Source: a virus
Direction: 5' to 3' (one strand)
IMG/VR virus record: IMGVR_UViG_3300045988_150292
Location: 14,386 to 78,385 of that record
Length of the DNA: 64,000 bases
Shown: positions 4,595 through 62,642 of the stretch, piece after piece
Position numbering within the stretch: the stretch's first letter is position 1
Layout: every line of letters starts with the position of its first letter
Position numbers and translations under genes: made by a program
Notes under the pieces: model-generated
Database searches by the model: none
What the model was told of the DNA's origin: nothing
Seen by the model: the letters and a program-made list of their open reading frames with translations, nothing else

Positions 4595-4669
4595 CTTTTT
4601 GAAAAGCCCCTATCCTCACGGACCGAGGCTTGAAAAAATTAACTAACACTTAAAACTATGAAGAAAAAA

Positions 4670-34830: not shown

Positions 34831-34977
34831 TTAATTTAATGTTAAAGGCAACAGGCAATTGGGAATAAGTGGAAGAATTGGTTACTTTTGCAACAACTTT
34901 TAATGAGCGGGGAGCTTTCCTCGTTTCATAATTCTAAAATTTTCAGTTGAGGCGGTGCTGTGAAGCATCGCCTTCTT

Positions 34978-41058: not shown

Positions 41059-41105
41059 TCCGTGTTAGTTCGAGGCTATACCGTGGTTCAAATCCATGGC
41101 ACGGA
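41059..41105 (+). ncRNA. tRNA-like minihelix (acceptor-like stem plus T-arm, no D or anticodon arms)
   Basis: TCCGTG (41059-64) pairs with CACGGA (41100-05). CCGTGG (41081-86) pairs with CCATGG (41094-99) around the T-loop-like TTCAAAT. Confidence 0.3.
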
Positions 41106-41146
41106 ACAACGGCAATATTGCCCAATAACTAAAAAAATTCAAAATT

Positions 41147-41665
41147 ATGAAAACTCTAAACGAACGTGTGAAAGATGTGGTGCGTACCGTTGTACTCGAT
41201 GCGGATTATACGGAATTAGGTGAACAATCTAAAGCCGTGCAAGAATGGCTACAGAATGATGCTAAATTCATTCAGTTGAAAAAAGCGTTAGAAGCCTACA
41301 GACTTAAGGCTTTTGCAGAAAACGCTGAGTACCAGAAAATAAGCCGTGCTACATTGTTCACCGCTTTTGTAGCGGTAGTAAAGTTGGTAAAAGGTGTCAA
41401 CATTCCCGAAAACTACCTAACTGAGGACGACGGTAATACCCTTGCGCGTCTTGCATCTGAGAATATATGTGATACAGATTCACGTATAGCTTCACTTATA
41501 TGTCGGATTAACGACACCTTTAAGCCGGCAAAGGTTACACGTACAACAGAATTCATTCCGTACACTATTGCGGAAATTCGCAAATTGGTTGAACTCATTC
41601 AGTTGGGTATTTTGGAACGTGAAGCGGTGCGAAGACAAGTAAGAGAAGGAAAACGGAAACGTTAA
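41147..41665 (+). CDS. hypothetical protein
   Basis: 172-aa ORF, followed by a strong terminator. Confidence 0.55.
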   Translation: MKTLNERVKDVVRTVVLDADYTELGEQSKAVQEWLQNDAKFIQLKKALEAYRLKAFAENAEYQKISRATLFTAFVAVVKLVKGVNIPENYLTEDDGNTLARLASENICDTDSRIASLICRINDTFKPAKVTRTTEFIPYTIAEIRKLVELIQLGILEREAVRRQVREGKRKR

Positions 41666-53674: not shown

Positions 53675-53754
53675 CCTGCTAATGCCTTTGTCCCTTCCGG
53701 GCAGGGCACTCATTCTGACCATATCATAATTCTATACTAATGTTTTATCTTCGG

Positions 53755-53788
53755 CAGACCCACCGTGAGGTTCGTCTGTCGTATTTTT
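53755..53788 (+). terminator. intrinsic terminator with GTGA tetraloop
   Basis: CAGACCCACC-GTGA-GGTTCGTCTG followed by a T-rich run. Confidence 0.6.
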
Positions 53789-53849: not shown

Positions 53850-53904
53850 AATTTTAGATATAATGCAGCAGTCGGGACCCGCCGTGAGGTTCGTTCCGGT
53901 TTTT
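53850..53904 (+). ncRNA. candidate ~55-nt small RNA (promoter-like box to second GTGA-loop terminator)
   Basis: TATATTTG at 53836-53843. A homologous terminator CGGGACCCGCC-GTGA-GGTTCGTTCCG plus T-run lies at 53873-53904. Confidence 0.25.
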
Positions 53905-58589: not shown

Positions 58590-59807
58590 CTATTTTCCCC
58601 ATTCGGGAAAGACAAACATCATCAACCGTTCATTGGCCTCGTTGATGGGCCTGTAATCCTTCTTGATATAAAGCTCCGTCACCTTCATGGCAGGGTCCAC
58701 ATGGCAGAGCATGTCATTCACAAGCCATTTCGATATGCCTGCCTCGTTCAGAGCGATGGTGGCCATCGAATGACGGGCGGAATAGAACTGCAGACCTTCC
58801 ACGCCCACTTCCCTGCCGACAGCCTTCAAGCCTTCGTTTATCGACTTGTTCAGATTCTCCGGCGTAGAGAAACGGCGGTGGAAGCTGAACACACGCTCCC
58901 CATCGGCATCCCTCCACCTCTCAAACACATCCCTGACCACATCGGGCACCACGACACGCATCTCCGCACCGTCGCTGCGCCTGTCCTTCGTCTTCGCCCT
59001 GTGATACACTATCATCCCGTCCTCATAGTCCTCTGCGGCCCACAGGTCGGCGGAGTTCATCCCCATCAGACAGAAGCTCAGCCGGTAGCAGTCCAGCGCG
59101 AGGTCTCGCACACTGCACCTCCCTTTCGTTCCTTTTCCGTCATAAGGCAAGGCGAAGATTCTCCTCACCACTTCCAGAGGCAAAGCCCTCTTCTCTGCCA
59201 CACCGGGCTTCGGTACACGGTATTTCCGCAGCGAATGCTTTATCAGCACCACATCATTGTCCTCGTCATTATAGTATTCGCGTGCGTCGTTGAACATCTT
59301 CACTATTGCGCTGCAATACAGGGAAGCGGCACGGGGCTTGTCGCCGAGCCATTTTTCAAATCCGCGCATCAGGTTCACCGTCACCTCGTCAAACATAATC
59401 TCCTCCCTGCCCACAAAGCGTTTCAATGCGTTCACGGCAGACCTGTAGTTCTTCTTCCCCTTCACCTCCGACTCTTCAAGCCATTTCTCCGCATATCCCG
59501 TAAACGACAAGCCTCCGGCATTCCGCTTCATCGTCACATATCTCACCACATCATCTATATCCATGTCGTTCACTTCGAGATTCAGTTCCCCGATCCTTTT
59601 CCTGTAAACCCTTATCAAGTCCTCACACCTCTCCACCACGGCCATGTTCTTTATCCTGCCGGAAGCCGTGATGTCCTTCTTCTCCACAAATTCGTTCGTG
59701 GCGATATATTTCACCCTCCTGTCATAAGTCAGGCGTATCAAGACATTCCAAGTCTTGTCCGCCCTCATCTTGCTCTTCCTTATCAGAGCCTTCAAAGTAA
59801 CTGCCAT
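58590..59807 (-). CDS. int: tyrosine integrase (Bacteroides-type with N-terminal arm-binding domain)
   Basis: Start at MAVTLKALIRKSKMRADKTWNVLIRLTYD. C-terminal SARHSMAT...MLCH...ELYIKKDY catalytic motifs. Adjacent to the att core. Confidence 0.85.
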   Translation of the reverse strand: MAVTLKALIRKSKMRADKTWNVLIRLTYDRRVKYIATNEFVEKKDITASGRIKNMAVVERCEDLIRVYRKRIGELNLEVNDMDIDDVVRYVTMKRNAGGLSFTGYAEKWLEESEVKGKKNYRSAVNALKRFVGREEIMFDEVTVNLMRGFEKWLGDKPRAASLYCSAIVKMFNDAREYYNDEDNDVVLIKHSLRKYRVPKPGVAEKRALPLEVVRRIFALPYDGKGTKGRCSVRDLALDCYRLSFCLMGMNSADLWAAEDYEDGMIVYHRAKTKDRRSDGAEMRVVVPDVVRDVFERWRDADGERVFSFHRRFSTPENLNKSINEGLKAVGREVGVEGLQFYSARHSMATIALNEAGISKWLVNDMLCHVDPAMKVTELYIKKDYRPINEANERLMMFVFPEWGK

Positions 59808-59828
59808 ATCCGTCTCCTTTCTTTCTTC

Positions 59829-59861
59829 GGTCAAACATTGGTCAAACAATGGTCAAACAAA
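59829..59861. repeat. three tandem 11-bp repeats GGTCAAACAWT (candidate integrase arm sites)
   Basis: GGTCAAACATT GGTCAAACAAT GGTCAAACAAA. Confidence 0.8.
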
Positions 59862-59997: not shown

Positions 59998-60050
59998 TGG
60001 TGACTCCGGTGGGATTCAAACCCACGACCTTCAGAACCGGAATCTTATAC
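59998..60050 (-). other. att core: 3' half of a tRNA (anticodon-loop CCG, Arg-like) without the 5' half
   Basis: Minus strand reads ..TAAGATTCCGGTTCTGAAGGTCGTGGGTTTGAATCCCACCGGAGTCACCA. The T-arm, 3' acceptor and CCA are present. No complementary 5' acceptor lies within 100 nt. The T-loop has T at the C56 position. Confidence 0.6.
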
Positions 60051-60105: not shown

Positions 60106-60127
60106 GGTCAAACAATGGTTAAACAAT
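60106..60127. repeat. two tandem 11-bp repeats GGTYAAACAAT (candidate arm sites, other side of core)
   Basis: GGTCAAACAAT GGTTAAACAAT. Confidence 0.8.
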
Positions 60128-60654
60128 CAGTCCTTTTCCTGCTTCAACAGGCTGCGGTAAAACTCAATCTCCCTGTCCTGTTTCACGATCATCTCCTCTT
60201 TCTGTCTCAAAAGCTCGTTTTTCAGTTCGATCTCCCTTGACAGGTCGGTGGAGTTGCGCTCTTCCGAAGCACTGCCGTTCAGCACCCTGTTGAGAGCGTC
60301 CCAGAGTTCGTGCTTCTTTCCGTCATCAATGGCCATCGAGGAGTTGATGATGTTCTTCAAGGTCTCGTCAAGTGTCTCGTTGCCGTGGAAATCGGCATTC
60401 AGTTCCTCGTATGCCTTCTCTCCGTCAGCTCCGCACAGTCCGCAGCCGGTCAGAAGCCAGTCAAAGGTCACATTTGTCGCCTTGGCTATCTTCATCAGGA
60501 CAACCTCTGAAAAGCCACCCTTGCCGTTCAAGGCACGGGAGAAATTCCCCTGGTCTACGCCACATTCTTTTGCAAACCTGGAAGCGGTCACGCCGCGCTT
60601 CCGTCTCAAAACCTCAATTCTCTTCTTGATGCTTTCATCTGTATAATTAGCCAT
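60127..60654 (-). CDS. XRE-type HTH repressor-like protein (cI analogue)
   Basis: N-terminus RKRGVTASRFAKECGVDQGNFSRALNGKG is HTH-like. Divergent from a cro-like ORF. Confidence 0.65.
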   Translation of the reverse strand: MANYTDESIKKRIEVLRRKRGVTASRFAKECGVDQGNFSRALNGKGGFSEVVLMKIAKATNVTFDWLLTGCGLCGADGEKAYEELNADFHGNETLDETLKNIINSSMAIDDGKKHELWDALNRVLNGSASEERNSTDLSREIELKNELLRQKEEMIVKQDREIEFYRSLLKQEKD

Positions 60655-60887
60655 AATAAACCCTCCTTTTATTAAAGATTTGTAACACTATGTTGAAATA
60701 TATTAAACTATGTCGTAAATATGTGAATTTATGTGCTTTTATTTGGTGGATTATGTAATTCTATGTACTTTTGCAAGCGTTGAACATAAACCAACATTAA
60801 ATCAAAGTTAAACCAAAATTAAACTTATGGTTTGATTTGGCAAATATATATAAATTAACAATAGATACCAAATTTTGATGTAAAAAC
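60655..60887. promoter_or_regulatory. immunity-region intergenic with six phased TATGT motifs and a TACTTTTG -7 box
   Basis: TATGT at 60689, 60709, 60720, 60730, 60752 and 60762 (spacings 20, 11, 10, 22, 10). TACTTTTG at 60766-60773. Confidence 0.5.
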
Positions 60888-61066: not shown

Positions 61067-61372
61067 ATGACGATGACGATAGAACAGATAGGGGCAATGA
61101 TGGCTGACTTCGTGCAGATCGGCTACATGACGGCAGTCAAGGCTTACGAGCCGACATCCGACGAGCTCCGGCTCAAGGATGTGGAGAAATGGTGCAGGGC
61201 TACCTTCACTGACTACAAGACGCTGCTGCGGCTCATAAAGGCAGGTGTCATAAAGGCACACAGAAAAGGAGACAGCAGAAATTCCCCCTTATATTACTCC
61301 AAAGCGGAGATAAAGCAGGCGATAATCAATGCCAGGCTTTCAAGATACATAACGGAAGACAACATACGCTGA
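61067..61372 (+). CDS. HTH/excisionase-like protein
   Basis: Start at MTMTIEQIG. LRLKDVEKWCRATFTDYKTLLRLIKAGVIKAHRKG resembles Bacteroides-type HTH/excisionase proteins. Confidence 0.45.
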   Translation: MTMTIEQIGAMMADFVQIGYMTAVKAYEPTSDELRLKDVEKWCRATFTDYKTLLRLIKAGVIKAHRKGDSRNSPLYYSKAEIKQAIINARLSRYITEDNIR

Positions 61373-61764
61373 CAAGTCTTCCATATCCGCCGAGACAGCT
61401 GACGACTGGCAACCCGGAGCGAGACCGGCGAGCGGAACCACTCAAATGGACGGTATATGCCTTGCCCTATCAGCCATGGGGCGAACCACAAGGAAGCCGA
61501 ACCGAGGCGACGGCTCTTCCGTGACGAACGATCTTTGACTTATCGGAACTAAATAGTATAGGTGTAATAAAGTAGCGGAGAGCATCGTGGATGCCGTGAC
61601 CCGTGAAAAGGACGCACAATTATACGCAAGTCCTCTCTCAGCGTGTTTCTGAGTAGCAACAAACGAACTGCATCTTTCTTTTAAAGATGCAAGCGGAGCA
61701 TAAAGGGAACACAAGAGGGGCAAGAAAGCAAACGGCTTACGCTTTCATCATCATATATTCAAAG

Positions 61765-61847
61765 AGGCGGGTAGCTCAAAAGGTGAGAGCATGCACAGGT
61801 CTTCCAAAGACTGATGCAAGACGCAGGTTCAAGTCCTGTCCTGTCTC
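61765..61847 (+). tRNA. tRNA-like gene, anticodon loop TTCCAAA (CCA, Trp-like) with abnormally long (4+4 bp) anticodon stem
   Basis: Acceptor AGGCGGG/CCTGTCT (two G-U pairs). D-arm GCTC-AAAAGGTGA-GAGC. T-arm GCAGG-TTCAAGT-CCTGT. The anticodon arm (61792-61818) is 10 positions per side with a 2x2 internal loop. Confidence 0.4.
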
Positions 61848-61920
61848 CATCGCATTTTGTTTTTATTATATTTTGCTAATTCGACATATAACTATTTGTT
61901 TGATTTATTTATGTGTCAAT

Positions 61921-61950
61921 CCTTCCCGTCTGTGAGGATAGGGAGGATTT
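61921..61950 (+). terminator. hairpin with GTGAGGATA loop, terminator-like
   Basis: CCTTCCC..GTCTGTGAGGATA..GGGAGG followed by ATTTTATTTT. Confidence 0.4.
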
Positions 61951-62161
61951 TATTTTAAAAACGACAGATTATGAAACAACTGAAACGATTCCTGTGGAAC
62001 GACTGGACGCTCGCTCTGCTGTGGTCACTGGCGCTTCTACTGCCAGTATTCCTTAAATGAAAACTGAATTTCTAACTATAAATAGGTATGAAAGGACATG
62101 CCTGCAGGTGAAAATCCTGTTGTTTATGGGTCTTACAAGAGGAGTCGCAGGCTCCTCAACC

Positions 62162-62245
62162 GGTGAAGGTCGGCGCAGCGCCTTGGAGAGTGCGCCATGG
62201 CATATAAAGCCCGAGAGCAAGGAAGTTCGATTCTTCCCTTCGCCA
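62162..62245 (+). ncRNA. tRNA-like element (acceptor stem + canonical T-arm, non-canonical body)
   Basis: GGTGAAG/CTTCGCC acceptor and GGAAG-TTCGATT-CTTCC T-arm. An internal 6-bp stem GGCGCA/TGCGCC carries a 13-nt loop. No convincing anticodon arm. Confidence 0.3.
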
Positions 62246-62384
62246 CCCGTGTGTTTATTATATTTGTTATAGTTTGAATAGATTTTTAGGCAGTTGCCTT
62301 TCTGTGAGAGGCGGGCGGCTGTATTAGAGCCTCAGTGGAGGCAGAATATTATCTAACATGTTTATTGGAGCAATAAAAACCTAT

Positions 62385-62417
62385 AGAAGCCCCGTCCGTG
62401 AGGATAGGGCTTCTTTT
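62385..62417 (+). terminator. hairpin homologous to 61921-61950, terminator-like
   Basis: AGAAGCCC-CGTCCGTGAGGATA-GGGCTTCT followed by TTT. Confidence 0.45.
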
Positions 62418-62420
62418 CAA

Positions 62421-62511
62421 GGGCGCAAAGTGGCAGCGGACACTCATAATAAAGGACAAAGCCATTTTAATCTAAATATATCCGCTGGCGGTTCGATTCC
62501 GTATGCGCCCA
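62421..62511 (+). ncRNA. tRNA-like element with acceptor stem, T-arm and a 6-bp stem carrying a 40-nt AT-rich loop
   Basis: GGGCGCA/TGCGCCC acceptor. (G)GCGG-TTCGATT-CCGT(A) T-arm. AGCGGA (62435-40) pairs with TCCGCT (62481-86). No D-arm. Confidence 0.3.
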
Positions 62512-62642
62512 CTAACCAATTTCTGTGAACAATGAAGTATATAAGAAATTTCATCATCCACCTGCTCGGTGGTGTCACCTTGGAGGAGGATATGGATAAT
62601 TCAAGAGCAAGATTGTATTGAATCCTATAACCAAAACGCATC

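What the first reader, a model, noticed from the sequence alone, without database searches (positions are those of the whole stretch)
61373..62640. 1.27-kb ORF-poor 'RNA island' with three aberrant tRNA-like elements
No convincing protein gene lies between the excisionase-like gene and the methyltransferases. Three elements there have good acceptor stems and canonical T-arms but abnormal bodies.
- 61765-61847: normal D-arm and a TTCCAAA loop (anticodon CCA). The anticodon stem is twice the normal length, 4+4 bp around a 2x2 internal loop.
- 62162-62245: acceptor and GGAAG-TTCGATT-CTTCC T-arm, a 6-bp stem with a 13-nt loop, and no recognisable anticodon arm.
- 62421-62511: acceptor, T-arm, no D-arm, and a 6-bp stem carrying a 40-nt AT-rich loop. 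This layout is reminiscent of a tmRNA tRNA-like domain but far too small to be one.

Two homologous GTGAGGATA-loop hairpins (61921-61950, 62385-62417) and a strong 9-bp hairpin (61669-61691) punctuate the island. Two tiny hydrophobic ORFs (61971-62060, 29 aa; 62534-62623, 29 aa) are also possible.

A fourth minihelix (41059-41105) and the att core (59998-60050) are also acceptor/T-arm derived.

Possible roles, all speculative: decoys or substrates for host anticodon nucleases or tRNA-targeting defences, RNase P/Z processing signals, or decayed phage tRNA genes.
Basis: partly seen in the sequence, partly recalled or inferred. Interest (0 to 1): 0.7.

Follow-up and report, generated by a model that had tools for sequence, protein, structure and literature searches.

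The report
Anticodon-less tRNA-like RNAs in phage operon
A gut Prevotella/Bacteroides-type temperate phage carries three conserved RNA elements in its early operon that keep the top half of a tRNA but have lost the anticodon. They most likely act as cutting signals for the host's tRNA-processing enzymes, not as decoders.

Summary
61765-61847 (E1), 62162-62245 (E2) and 62421-62511 (E3) each have a perfect 7-bp acceptor stem stacked on a T-arm. ARAGORN calls none of them. Rfam calls only E1 a tRNA, with 19 nt where 9 belong.

They are not decayed genes. Each belongs to a family found in related Prevotella, Paraprevotella and Bacteroides phages. In these families the acceptor, T and D-like stems covary strongly: E3 has 11 of 18 pairs compensated, E2 has 15 of 20. 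The anticodon region meanwhile ranges from absent to about 20 bp, so there is no conserved anticodon.

The elements lie on the coding strand of the early operon and have no consensus promoter of their own. The base after the discriminator is almost always C. Many are preceded within 3-12 nt by a GUGA-tetraloop, terminator-type hairpin. E3-family members end 1-2 nt before the next gene's ATG in six lineages.

My best reading (about 0.45) is that they are RNase P and 3'-end processing signals, a phage counterpart of mitochondrial tRNA punctuation and plant t-elements. Released tRNA mimics acting in trans are not excluded.

Side results: the 29-aa ORF at 61971 is a real micro-gene, the ORF at 62532 is a deletion remnant, and 61386-61436 is a diverged DUF2693-FD motif.

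The parts
60766..60773 (+). Context: a consensus Bacteroidetes promoter -7 box (TACTTTTG) with an upstream TTTG, ahead of the cro-like gene. It is the only full consensus promoter upstream of the island.
   Evidence: regex TAnnTTTG with TTTG in the -33 zone.
61386..61436 (+). Diverged DUF2693-FD RNA motif: a 7-bp closing stem plus a 5-bp stem with a 7-nt loop, 14 nt after the stop codon of the Xis-like gene.
   Evidence: Rfam RF02926 scores 28.5 bits, below the gathering score of 44.5. The same motif scores 62.7-73.3 bits in syntenic arrays of related phages L100 and L133. It is 84% conserved in L173-L186.
61532..61764 (+). Conserved non-coding leader. It contains the TCTTTGAC block, a GNRA hairpin, the position-conserved covarying hairpin at 61669-61691, the GCAAGCGGAGC..GGAAC block, and the ATATATTCAAAG box that ends at E1.
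   Evidence: Alignment of 8 lineages. BLAST blocks of 75-80% identity. The minus-strand 93-aa ORF here is broken in L082.
61765..61847 (+). E1: tRNA-derived element with an A1:U72 acceptor, a conserved G at -1 and C at 73, a canonical D- and T-arm, and an anticodon stem extended to 4+4 bp with loop UUCCAAA.
   Evidence: Family members L176:1054-1156, L184:4793-4895 and L178:762-833 score 41-47 bits on Rfam tRNA, but their anticodon region is a 7-bp stem with a 16-nt loop, or absent.
61918..61957 (+). Two-tier hairpin with a C-GUGA-G tetraloop (..GTCTGTGAGGATAG..) followed by a T-run. It is a terminator-type hairpin.
   Evidence: It partly matches the terminator portion of the Bacteroides sRNA model BTnc201.
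61971..62060 (+). Real micro-ORF of 29 aa, a hydrophobic single-helix peptide (MKQLKRFLWNDWTLALLWSLALLLPVFLK).
   Evidence: The recurrent substitutions among close relatives fall on third codon positions. Full-length homologues are 72% (L194) and 41% (L213) identical.
62162..62245 (+). E2: tRNA-like element with a 7-bp acceptor, the GTC junction, a 6-bp D-like stem with a 13-nt loop (GCGC..GGAGAG), a 3-bp vestigial arm, the GAGCAA junction, a T-arm, and discriminator A followed by C.
   Evidence: Model R2 gives a 9-member alignment that is 99.4% paired with 15 of 20 pairs compensated. The middle arm is absent in L184:5160-5228 and about 20 bp in L092 and L183.
62246..62384 (+). Variable spacer containing one promoter-like -7 box (TATATTTG, 62259-62266, with no -33 TTTG). 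It is replaced in L083-L085 and deleted in L001.
   Evidence: Weak hits to BTnc231 and GibS.
62385..62418 (+). Second two-tier GUGA hairpin (AGAAGCCCCGTCCGTGAGGATAGGGCTTCT plus TTTT). It ends a few nucleotides before E3.
   Evidence: (-19.7 kcal/mol, z = -5.0). An equivalent hairpin with a covarying lower stem precedes the E3-family element in every lineage examined.
62421..62511 (+). E3: tRNA-like element with a 7-bp acceptor, the AAGUGG junction, a 7-bp stem closing a 40-nt loop that holds the conserved AGCCAUUUUAAU, the T-arm GCGG/UUCGAUU/CCGU, and discriminator A followed by C.
   Evidence: Model R1 gives a 14-member alignment that is 98.8% paired with 11 of 18 pairs compensated. A metagenome scan added further members.
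62532..62621 (+). Remnant ORF of 29 aa, left by a deletion of about 330 bp that fused the start of a 64-aa ORF to the end of a 78-aa ORF present in all close relatives.
41059..41106 (+). Fourth element of the same kind: a 48-nt acceptor/T-arm minihelix with discriminator A followed by C, in the 5' UTR of ORF 41147-41665.
   Evidence: It is present in 1 of 4 relatives (L263) with one compensatory acceptor change.

Best explanation
E1, E2 and E3 are members of three conserved families of tRNA-derived structured RNAs. They occur in the early operon of temperate phages of Prevotella, Paraprevotella and Bacteroides.

Selection preserves exactly the part of a tRNA that tRNA-processing enzymes read. 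That part is the 7-bp acceptor stem coaxial with the T-arm, a D-like loop with GG that can form the elbow, the discriminator, and the C that follows it. The anticodon arm is free to shrink, vanish or grow, so the elements do not decode.

They are transcribed as part of the long rightward early transcript that starts at the promoter near 60770.

Inferred mechanism:
1. Host RNase P cuts at the 5' end of each element. The upstream RNA is then left ending in a stable GUGA hairpin.
2. A 3' tRNA-maturation activity cuts at or next to the discriminator. This frees the downstream mRNA with little or no leader. In the E3 family the AUG lies 1-2 nt after the element.

The array would therefore punctuate the boundary between immediate-early genes (cro-like, Xis-like) and delayed-early genes into separate RNAs, and would release small tRNA-like by-products.

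Shown: the structures, their covariation, synteny, strand, lack of own promoters, the conserved C, and the abutment to start codons. Inferred: cleavage by RNase P and a 3' enzyme, and its effect on expression.
For: - Structure and non-randomness.
- Family membership and covariation: E3 (98.8% paired, 11 of 18 pairs with changes on both sides, 0 of 500 shuffles as high, slid controls 31-60% paired). E2 (99.4% paired, 15 of 20 compensated). E1-type acceptor and T.
- The anticodon region is not conserved, ranging from 0 to about 20 bp, sometimes capped by a tetraloop.
- The arrays are linked to the early region next to the Xis-like gene in phages where that protein is 43-94% identical. They are absent from loci that share only the methyltransferase.
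- No consensus promoter lies directly upstream of E1, E2 or E3. The nearest full consensus promoter is at 60766, upstream of the cro-like gene.
- The base after the discriminator is C in 62 of 70 unique hits, and the 8 exceptions look like false positives. Established knowledge: C74 pairs with the L15 loop of bacterial RNase P RNA.
- E3-family elements end as A|C|ATG or A|CT|ATG before the next ORF in L092, L173/L184, L178, L181, L183 and L219. A folded tRNA-like domain touching the AUG would block 30S binding unless it is removed (inference).
- Many other elements sit 20-40 nt upstream of an ORF start.
- A GUGA hairpin ends 3-12 nt upstream of many elements.
- A documented precedent exists: plant mitochondrial t-elements and tRNA punctuation (PMC1920247).
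Against: - There is no transcript-end data, so no cleavage has been shown.
- In the window itself E1 and E2 are not next to ORF starts, and E3 is 20 nt from a remnant ORF.
- The conserved C after the discriminator is thought, from memory, to disfavour RNase Z in some bacteria. The 3' cut may therefore be made by another route or not at all.
- E2 and E3 conserve loop and junction sequences (GCNC..GGANAG, GAGCRA, AAGUGG, AGCCAUUUUAAU) beyond what RNase P is known to need. This hints at an additional partner.
- The hairpins upstream look like real terminators. If they are efficient, little transcript would reach the elements unless there is antitermination.
- The covariation alignments were retrieved and fitted with structure-aware models or a pairing filter, which inflates the percentage paired.
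Confidence: 0.45

Rival explanations
1. The functional products are the released small tRNA-like RNAs themselves, acting in trans as mimics. They could act as decoys, sponges or regulators for a host or phage factor that reads the tRNA top half or elbow. Candidates include tRNA-targeting defence nucleases or acceptor-end-modifying toxins, CCA-adding or modification enzymes, an aminoacyl-tRNA synthetase, or the ribosomal E-site/L1 stalk.
For: - Family-specific single-stranded motifs are conserved beyond the stems.
- Several different families occur per array, as expected for a panel of mimics.
- The elements are expressed from the earliest operon, when counter-defence is needed.
- Phage tRNAs that neutralise tRNA-cleaving defences are documented (PMC11555353 and PMC10802454, listed).
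- The anticodon loop, which is the usual cleavage site, is exactly what has been lost.
Against: - No partner protein is consistently linked.
- A catalytic nuclease is poorly countered by a stoichiometric decoy.
- The tight abutment to start codons and the position in 5' UTRs are not explained.
- No own promoters or dedicated terminators flank each element.
- This reading is not exclusive of the processing model.
Confidence: 0.25
2. They are cis-acting 5'-UTR control elements that are not cleaved. The idea is a folded tRNA-like domain placed just after a terminator and just before the AUG. It would gate translation initiation or mRNA stability, or take part in antitermination, possibly through a bound factor.
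For: - The order terminator-type hairpin, then element, then ORF recurs across lineages.
- The array sits where lambdoid phages place nutR/tR1, between the cro-like gene and the replication genes.
- The leader upstream is conserved and appears structured.
Against: - The element lies downstream of the hairpin, so it cannot act as an antiterminator for it.
- Nothing explains why a generic regulator should retain tRNA-specific features: the TTCRA loop, the 7+5 stack, and the discriminator followed by C.
- E1 and E2 in the window are far from any AUG.
Confidence: 0.12
3. They are decaying pseudogenes of phage tRNA genes with no present function.
For: - Phage tRNA genes turn over quickly.
- Some arrays hold nearly normal tRNAs, for example L181:4784-4852 (CAU anticodon loop, Rfam 50.9 bits).
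- E1 still carries a tRNA-like 7-nt loop, UUCCAAA.
Against: - Decay would hit all arms equally. Here the acceptor, T and D-like stems stay 98.8-99.4% paired in the model-retrieved E3 and E2 sets through many double substitutions, while only the anticodon region varies.
- The elements persist in phages whose neighbouring protein has diverged to 62-85% identity.
- The C after the discriminator is conserved.
Confidence: 0.05
4. They are working decoding tRNAs with unusual bodies. For example, E1 could be a tRNA-Trp (CCA) with a long anticodon stem.
For: - E1 passes the Rfam tRNA gathering score.
- The UUCCAAA loop has U33 and A37 in place and is invariant in the close relatives.
Against: - ARAGORN rejects all three.
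- The E1 family has no conserved anticodon arm. It is a 7-bp stem with a 16-nt loop in L176 and L184 and is absent in L178.
- An anticodon stem of about 10 layers is incompatible with the fixed anticodon-to-CCA distance on the ribosome (established knowledge).
- E2 and E3 have no anticodon arm.
Confidence: 0.03
5. They act at the DNA level, as recombination or att-like sites or as module-boundary sequences that promote mosaic exchange.
For: - The spacers between elements are swapped or deleted between close relatives.
- The phage integrates at a tRNA gene.
Against: - Compensatory changes that preserve base pairing point to selection on an RNA (or single-strand) fold, not on a duplex recognition sequence.
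- The strand bias matches transcription.
- Full 5' and 3' acceptor strands are present, unlike att cores.
Confidence: 0.05

Closest known systems
Plant mitochondrial t-elements and the mitochondrial tRNA-punctuation model
   Same: Both are non-canonical tRNA-like folds with a conserved T-arm (GGTTCRANYCC), embedded in polycistronic transcripts. Their borders coincide with mRNA ends, including ends at or next to the start codon. In mitochondria they are cleaved by RNase P and RNase Z and receive non-templated C/CA (PMC1920247).
   Different: Those are organellar and their ends have been mapped experimentally. Here the host is a bacterium and the carrier is a phage, nothing has been mapped, there are three distinct covarying families with family-specific loops, and the elements usually follow a terminator-type hairpin.
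Canonical bacterial and phage tRNA genes (Rfam RF00005)
   Same: They share the 7-bp acceptor, the T-arm with a TTCRA loop and the discriminator. E1 also has a normal D-arm and passes the Rfam threshold.
   Different: There is no conserved 5-bp anticodon stem with a 7-nt loop. ARAGORN rejects all three. E2 has a 6-bp D-like stem with a 13-nt loop, and E3 has no D-arm.
DUF2693-FD RNA motif (Rfam RF02926, Weinberg et al. 2017)
   Same: It occurs in the same arrays (L100, L133) and as a diverged copy at 61386-61436. Its consensus also has a 7-bp closing stem directly stacked on a 5-bp stem with a 7-nt loop (structure line).
   Different: It is 49 nt long, its loop is AGCGAGA rather than TTCRA, and it has no D-like or central arm. 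E1-E3 do not match its model.
tmRNA tRNA-like domain
   Same: E3 has an acceptor plus T-arm, lacks a D-stem, and replaces the anticodon arm with a long helix. A short pseudoknot-like complementarity (AAGUGG with CCAUUU) is possible.
   Different: It is 73-94 nt long, with no tag reading frame, no pseudoknot series and no conserved G3:U70. ARAGORN makes no tmRNA call at default settings and there is no Rfam tmRNA hit.
Other RNase P-processed tRNA mimics recalled from memory and not tested here: T4 species 1 and 2 RNAs, P1/P7 C4 RNA precursor, MALAT1 mascRNA, MHV68 tRNA-miRNA units, bacterial YrlA Y-RNA
   Same: All are non-decoding RNAs with a tRNA-like module, used to define RNA ends or to bind tRNA-recognising proteins.
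   Different: No sequence or model similarity was detected in the Rfam scan. The hosts, sizes and genomic settings differ.

Membership tests
Canonical tRNA | 7-bp acceptor stem stacked on a 5-bp T-stem with a 7-nt TPsiC-type loop | tested here: met
   E1 and E2 have 7/7 and 5/5 pairs. E3 has 7/7 and 4/5.
Canonical tRNA | 5-bp anticodon stem with a 7-nt loop carrying a conserved anticodon | tested here: not met
   E1 has a 4+4-bp stem with an internal loop, E2 a 3-bp vestige and E3 none. The region is not conserved within the families.
Canonical tRNA | Recognition by tRNA gene finders | tested here: inconclusive
   Default ARAGORN gives 0 calls. Rfam tRNA scores E1 at 43.8 bits, above the gathering score of 29. 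E2 and E3 get only 19 and 17.6 bits against tRNA-Sec, whose gathering score is 47. tRNAscan-SE was not available.
Canonical tRNA | Aminoacylation and use on the ribosome | not testable with these tools
   Needs acid gels, tRNA-seq or charging assays.
tmRNA | tRNA-like domain plus an internal tag reading frame with a resume codon and pseudoknots | tested here: not met
   ARAGORN finds no tmRNA at default settings. A permuted 'tmRNA' appears only at a relaxed threshold and has an implausible tag. There is no Rfam tmRNA hit. E3 is 91 nt long.
tRNA-Sec | 8/5 (or 9/4) acceptor/T geometry, 6-bp D-stem, UCA anticodon and a long variable arm | tested here: not met
   E2 has a 6-bp D-like stem but 7/5 geometry and no UCA anticodon. 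Its score is 19 bits against a gathering score of 47.
DUF2693-FD RNA (RF02926) | Score at or above the Rfam gathering score (44.5 bits) with the 7-bp closing stem and the 5-bp stem with AGCGAGA loop | tested here: inconclusive
   61386-61436 scores 28.5 bits and has two mismatched closing pairs. Syntenic copies score 62.7-73.3 bits in L100 and L133, and 84%-identical copies occur in L173-L186.
t-element / tRNA-punctuation processing signal | Non-canonical tRNA-like fold with a conserved T-arm inside a longer transcript | tested here: met
   None of E1, E2 or E3 has a consensus promoter of its own directly upstream.
t-element / tRNA-punctuation processing signal | Element borders coincide with mapped RNA 5' and 3' ends made by RNase P and RNase Z | not testable with these tools
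   The only evidence is indirect. E3-family 3' ends lie 1-2 nt from start codons, and the C after the discriminator is conserved.
Intrinsic terminator (for the GTGAGGATA hairpins) | GC-rich hairpin followed by a U-run, located at transcript ends | tested here: inconclusive
   Both island hairpins are stable and followed by T-runs, and the same hairpin type ends gene blocks elsewhere in the window. Several homologous hairpins in relatives lack a U-run. The simple terminator scan does not pick them up because of the bulge.

The most novel reading that the evidence does not exclude
Gut Bacteroidales phages use arrays of anticodon-less tRNA mimics as a bacterial-virus version of mitochondrial tRNA punctuation. 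Host RNase P and 3'-end enzymes would cut the early transcript at these modules, producing leaderless or near-leaderless delayed-early mRNAs. The same cuts would liberate a panel of small tRNA-like RNAs, which may additionally titrate tRNA-binding host factors or defences.
Probability: 0.35. Interest if true: 0.8.

Novelty: new variant of a known kind. Interest (0 to 1): 0.65.

Why it matters
If the reading is correct, it would be, as far as my Rfam scan and literature searches could find, an undescribed case of conserved tRNA-derived processing modules organising a phage operon. It would show that tRNA-processing enzymes shape phage mRNA ends, and possibly leaderless translation, in a phylum that does not use Shine-Dalgarno initiation.

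It defines at least two RNA families (E2 and E3) that match no Rfam 15 model above threshold. It also gives a genomic context to the orphan DUF2693-FD motif.

It has an annotation consequence too. In these phages, 'tRNA-???' calls, pseudo-tRNA calls and odd Rfam tRNA hits are not decoders.

The alternative trans-acting reading would add RNA mimics to the list of candidate phage counter-defences against tRNA-targeting immunity.

Tried and rejected
- Default ARAGORN found nothing. At relaxed thresholds it gave contradictory identities (Thr, Tyr, Pyl with intron, a permuted tmRNA), which I did not trust.
- A distant BLASTN search of the INPHARED phage collection found no match.
- Loci found through the downstream methyltransferase (80 loci) lack the island and lack tRNA-like elements, so the linkage is not to that gene.
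- An exact-pattern scan for E1 with a variable anticodon insert returned only near-identical relatives.
- MAFFT alignments of E2 and E3 across lineages put the acceptor or D-like strands out of register. I replaced them with covariance-model alignments.
- The simple promoter/terminator scan missed the bulged hairpins.
- Pfam and PHROGs gave no function for the Xis-like protein or for the ORFs after E3.
- Literature searches found no earlier description of these elements. The supplement of the DUF2693-FD paper is not held.
- G3:U70 (alanine identity) is present in some related elements but replaced by A3:U70 in L163 and L165, so I dropped it as a general feature.
- A pseudoknot in E3 (AAGUGG with CCAUUU) is complementary over about 4 bp in most lineages but broken in L092, so I do not claim it.
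- A promoter reading of the ATATATTCAAAG box before E1 has no properly spaced -33 TTTG.
Full report
**Setting.** The window is a temperate phage genome of the Bacteroidales type.
- An integrase lies at 58590-59849 (-), with Phage_int_SAM_5 and Phage_integrase domains.
- Next comes an attP core that is the 3' part of a tRNA gene on the minus strand, ending ...GTCACCA.
- An HTH repressor lies at 60127-60654 (-).
- A consensus Bacteroidetes promoter (TTTG ... TACTTTTG) lies at 60766-60773.
- Then follow a 58-aa cro-like HTH gene, a 101-aa 'Xis-like' gene of unknown family (61067-61372), the island, and a DNA methyltransferase (phrog_799).
- The closest genome-resolved relative of the Xis-like gene is in an uncultured Prevotella MAG. 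More distant relatives are in Paraprevotella clara, P. xylaniphila and Bacteroides MAGs.

**Checking the observation.**
- Default ARAGORN reports no tRNA or tmRNA in the 64 kb.
- Rfam at gathering thresholds reports one hit, tRNA at 61765-61847 with 43.8 bits. In the alignment, 19 nt occupy the place of the 9 central anticodon-arm positions.
- E2 and E3 reach only 19 and 17.6 bits on tRNA-Sec.
- My scan for a perfect 7-bp acceptor directly following a T-arm with a TTCRANN loop finds 7 hits in the window, against 2.1 in shuffles. Only E1, E2, E3 and the 48-nt minihelix at 41059 combine a clean T-stem with a GC-rich acceptor.
- The same scan finds nothing comparable in about 600 kb of phage loci that share only the methyltransferase, apart from one true tRNA-Met.
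- Three such elements on one strand within 750 bp is therefore not chance.

**Relatives.** Close relatives at 87-100% identity (IMG/VR contigs L001, L081-L085, L087) carry the same island.
- Within E1, the substitutions in these relatives keep the pairs. Position 5:70 is G-U, A-U or G-C.
- Homologues of the Xis-like protein let me fetch intermediate relatives at 62-85% protein identity (L173-L186, L092) and distant ones at 43-53% (L098-L172).
- Most of the intermediate relatives have a gene-poor gap of 1.2-1.9 kb after that gene; in L178 it is only about 0.5 kb. All of them have the same layout: a DUF2693-FD-like motif, a conserved leader, then two to five tRNA-like elements with different acceptor sequences.
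- In the distant relatives, the arrays sit just upstream of the Xis-like gene, again with DUF2693-FD. There it scores 62.7-73.3 bits, above Rfam's gathering score.
- Across all these loci there are dozens of distinct elements of 50-130 nt on the coding strand. ARAGORN labels several of them 'tRNA-???' with 2- or 4-nt 'anticodons'.

**Family E3.** A covariance model built from seven sequences (R1) retrieves 14 distinct members from the phage loci, and more from human-gut metagenome contigs.
- On the 14-member alignment, 98.8% of cells are paired.
- 11 of 18 pairs show changes on both sides: 6 of 7 in the acceptor and 5 of 7 in the inner stem.
- No shuffle out of 500 reaches the observed values, and sliding the partner drops pairing to 31-60%.
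- Acceptor variants include GGGCGCA/TGCGCCC, GGTCGCA/TGCGACC, GGAGCGC/GCGCTCC, GGGCTGC/GCAGCCC, GGATGCG/CGCATCC and GGTCGGG/CCCGACC.
- The T-arm, the AAGUGG junction and an AGCCAU(U/A)(U/A)U motif in the large loop are conserved. The rest of the loop varies.

**Family E2.** Model R2 retrieves nine members, including copies my scan had missed because their T-loop is TCCGAAT.
- Pairing is 99.4%, and 15 of 20 pairs are compensated.
- The conserved unpaired features are the GTC after the acceptor, a 12-13-nt loop GCNC...GGANAG on a 6-bp stem, and a GAGCRA-type junction before the T-stem.
- The central arm is absent in L184:5160-5228, 3 bp in the window and about 20 bp in L092 and L183.

**Family E1.** Syntenic members L176:1054-1156, L184:4793-4895 and L178:762-833 are called tRNA by Rfam at 41-47 bits.
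- They share A1:U72, a G at -1, C73, a canonical D-arm and the T-arm GCAGG/CCTGY.
- Their anticodon region differs completely. It is a 7-bp stem with a 16-nt loop plus 20 extra nt in L176 and L184, and it is missing in L178.
- Acceptor and T-stems of this class are fully paired, with 11 of 12 pairs compensated. That set was chosen with a pairing filter, so the percentage is not independent evidence.
- The UUCCAAA loop of the window's E1 is therefore a lineage-specific remnant, not a conserved anticodon.

**What this excludes.** Neutral decay would erode all arms equally. Here only the anticodon region erodes, while the acceptor, T and D-like stems are maintained through many double substitutions. 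So the elements are functional RNAs that do not decode.
- A roughly ten-layer anticodon stem (E1), or no anticodon arm at all (E2, E3), is incompatible with ribosomal decoding. This rests on established knowledge.
- E3 is not a tmRNA.
- Apart from E1's tRNA hit, no Rfam 15 family matches E1-E3 above threshold.

**Context that bears on mechanism.**
1. None of E1, E2 or E3 has a consensus Bacteroidetes promoter directly upstream. Only a lone TATATTTG at 62259, without a -33 box, lies inside the island, just after E2. The nearest full promoter is the early one at 60766. The elements are therefore parts of the early transcript.
2. The base after the discriminator is C in 62 of 70 unique hits, and the exceptions look like false positives. 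Positions +2 and +3 vary, so CCA is not encoded.
3. E3-family elements end 1-2 nt before the ATG of the next ORF (A|C|ATG or A|CT|ATG) in six lineages with different acceptors. The N-termini of those ORFs align from that ATG. Many other elements lie 20-40 nt upstream of an ORF behind an AT-rich leader.
4. A two-tier hairpin with a C-GUGA-G tetraloop and a covarying lower stem ends 3-12 nt upstream of many elements, including E3. The same hairpin type ends gene blocks elsewhere in the window, so it is the phage's usual terminator-like hairpin.
5. The genes further downstream are replication and recombination genes (O-like, ERF, AAA_24). The array thus sits between immediate-early and delayed-early genes.

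**Proposed mechanism.** The retained features are the ones read by RNase P, the CCA-adding enzyme and 3'-end tRNA nucleases: the acceptor/T stack, the elbow, the discriminator and C74.
- I propose that the elements are cleavage signals that cut the early transcript.
- The upstream RNA would keep a protective 3' hairpin.
- The downstream mRNA would start at or near its AUG.
- A folded domain touching the AUG would otherwise hinder 30S binding.
- This is the logic of mitochondrial tRNA punctuation and of plant t-elements, whose borders coincide with mRNA ends, including one at +2 of rps4 (PMC1920247).
- Structure, covariation and context are shown. Cleavage and its consequences are inferred.

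**Weak points.**
- No RNA-end data exist.
- E1 and E2 in this window are not next to ORFs.
- C74 may disfavour RNase Z.
- The family-specific conserved loops suggest an extra partner. This keeps the trans-acting mimic or decoy reading alive, at about 0.25.

**Other features in the island.**
- 61386-61436 is a diverged DUF2693-FD motif. Its consensus has the same 7+5 stacked-helix geometry as an acceptor/T minihelix.
- The leader at 61532-61764 is conserved in eight lineages.
- The 29-aa ORF at 61971 is real. The recurrent substitutions among close relatives are at third codon positions, and full-length homologues are 72% and 41% identical.
- The 29-aa ORF at 62532 is what remains after a deletion of about 330 bp that fused a 64-aa ORF and a 78-aa ORF.
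- The minus-strand 93-aa ORF at 61442-61723 is broken in L082.

**Verdict.** It is one instance of a recurrent array of tRNA-derived, non-decoding RNA modules in gut Bacteroidales phages. At least two of the families are absent from Rfam.
- I classify it as a new variant of a known kind, namely tRNA-like processing or mimic elements.
- Interest is 0.65.
- The mechanism needs transcript-end mapping.

Noticed in passing
window 61373-61764 (also L178:425-761, L183:4322-4790, L184:4340-4792, L092:1346-1809, L176:679-1053, L181:4307-4656): The 330-470-nt stretch between the Xis-like stop codon and the first tRNA-like element is conserved across eight lineages. It has invariant blocks (TCTTTGAC, GCAAGCNGAGC, GGAAC), a GNRA hairpin, and a possible long-range pairing of GUUCU with GGAAC. 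It may be a larger structured RNA in its own right.
   Followed up: partly
window 61971-62060: A 29-aa hydrophobic micro-ORF is conserved as a full-length peptide in diverged relatives (72% identical in L194, 41% in L213). It is a probable small membrane protein encoded inside the RNA array.
   Followed up: yes
window 62532-62621 compared with L082:5464-5896: The window phage has a deletion of about 330 bp between short repeats. It fuses the start of a 64-aa ORF to the end of a 78-aa ORF. Both ORFs are intact in all close relatives.
   Followed up: yes
window 4604-4631(-), 34949-34974, 53752-53781, 53870-53901, 61918-61949, 62385-62414: The phage uses a stereotyped two-tier hairpin with a C-GUGA-G tetraloop and a 3' bulge (..GTCCGTGAGGATAG..), mostly followed by T-runs. 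The same loop appears in the terminators of B. thetaiotaomicron sRNA models (BTnc201, BTnc231). Some homologues in relatives have no U-run.
   Followed up: partly
L157-L172 (e.g. L158:1809-1891, L158:2469-2534) and L127/L133-L137 (e.g. L133:1992-2059): Several related elements carry G3:U70 with A73, the alanine identity set, and have tetraloop-capped or missing anticodon arms. L163 and L165 have A3:U70 instead, so the feature is not universal. Charging by AlaRS was not tested.
   Followed up: partly
E1-type elements: window 61764/61847, L176:1053/1156, L184:4792/4895, L178:761/833, L092:1809/1869, L183:4790/4849, L181:4656/4717: All E1-type elements have G at -1 and C at the discriminator position, which can form an eighth acceptor pair as in tRNA-His. 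They are preceded by a conserved ATAT(A/T)TTCAAAG-like box.
   Followed up: no
L082:5918-6373: In relative L082 the methyltransferase reading frame diverges after about 40 residues into an unrelated coiled-coil-like C-terminus. The gene after the island is therefore replaced or disrupted in that phage.
   Followed up: no
L181:4784-4852: A near-normal tRNA-like gene with a CUCAUAA anticodon loop (CAU) but only a 3-bp T-stem sits in the same array, right after a GUGA hairpin. Rfam tRNA scores it at 50.9 bits and ARAGORN does not call it.
   Followed up: no
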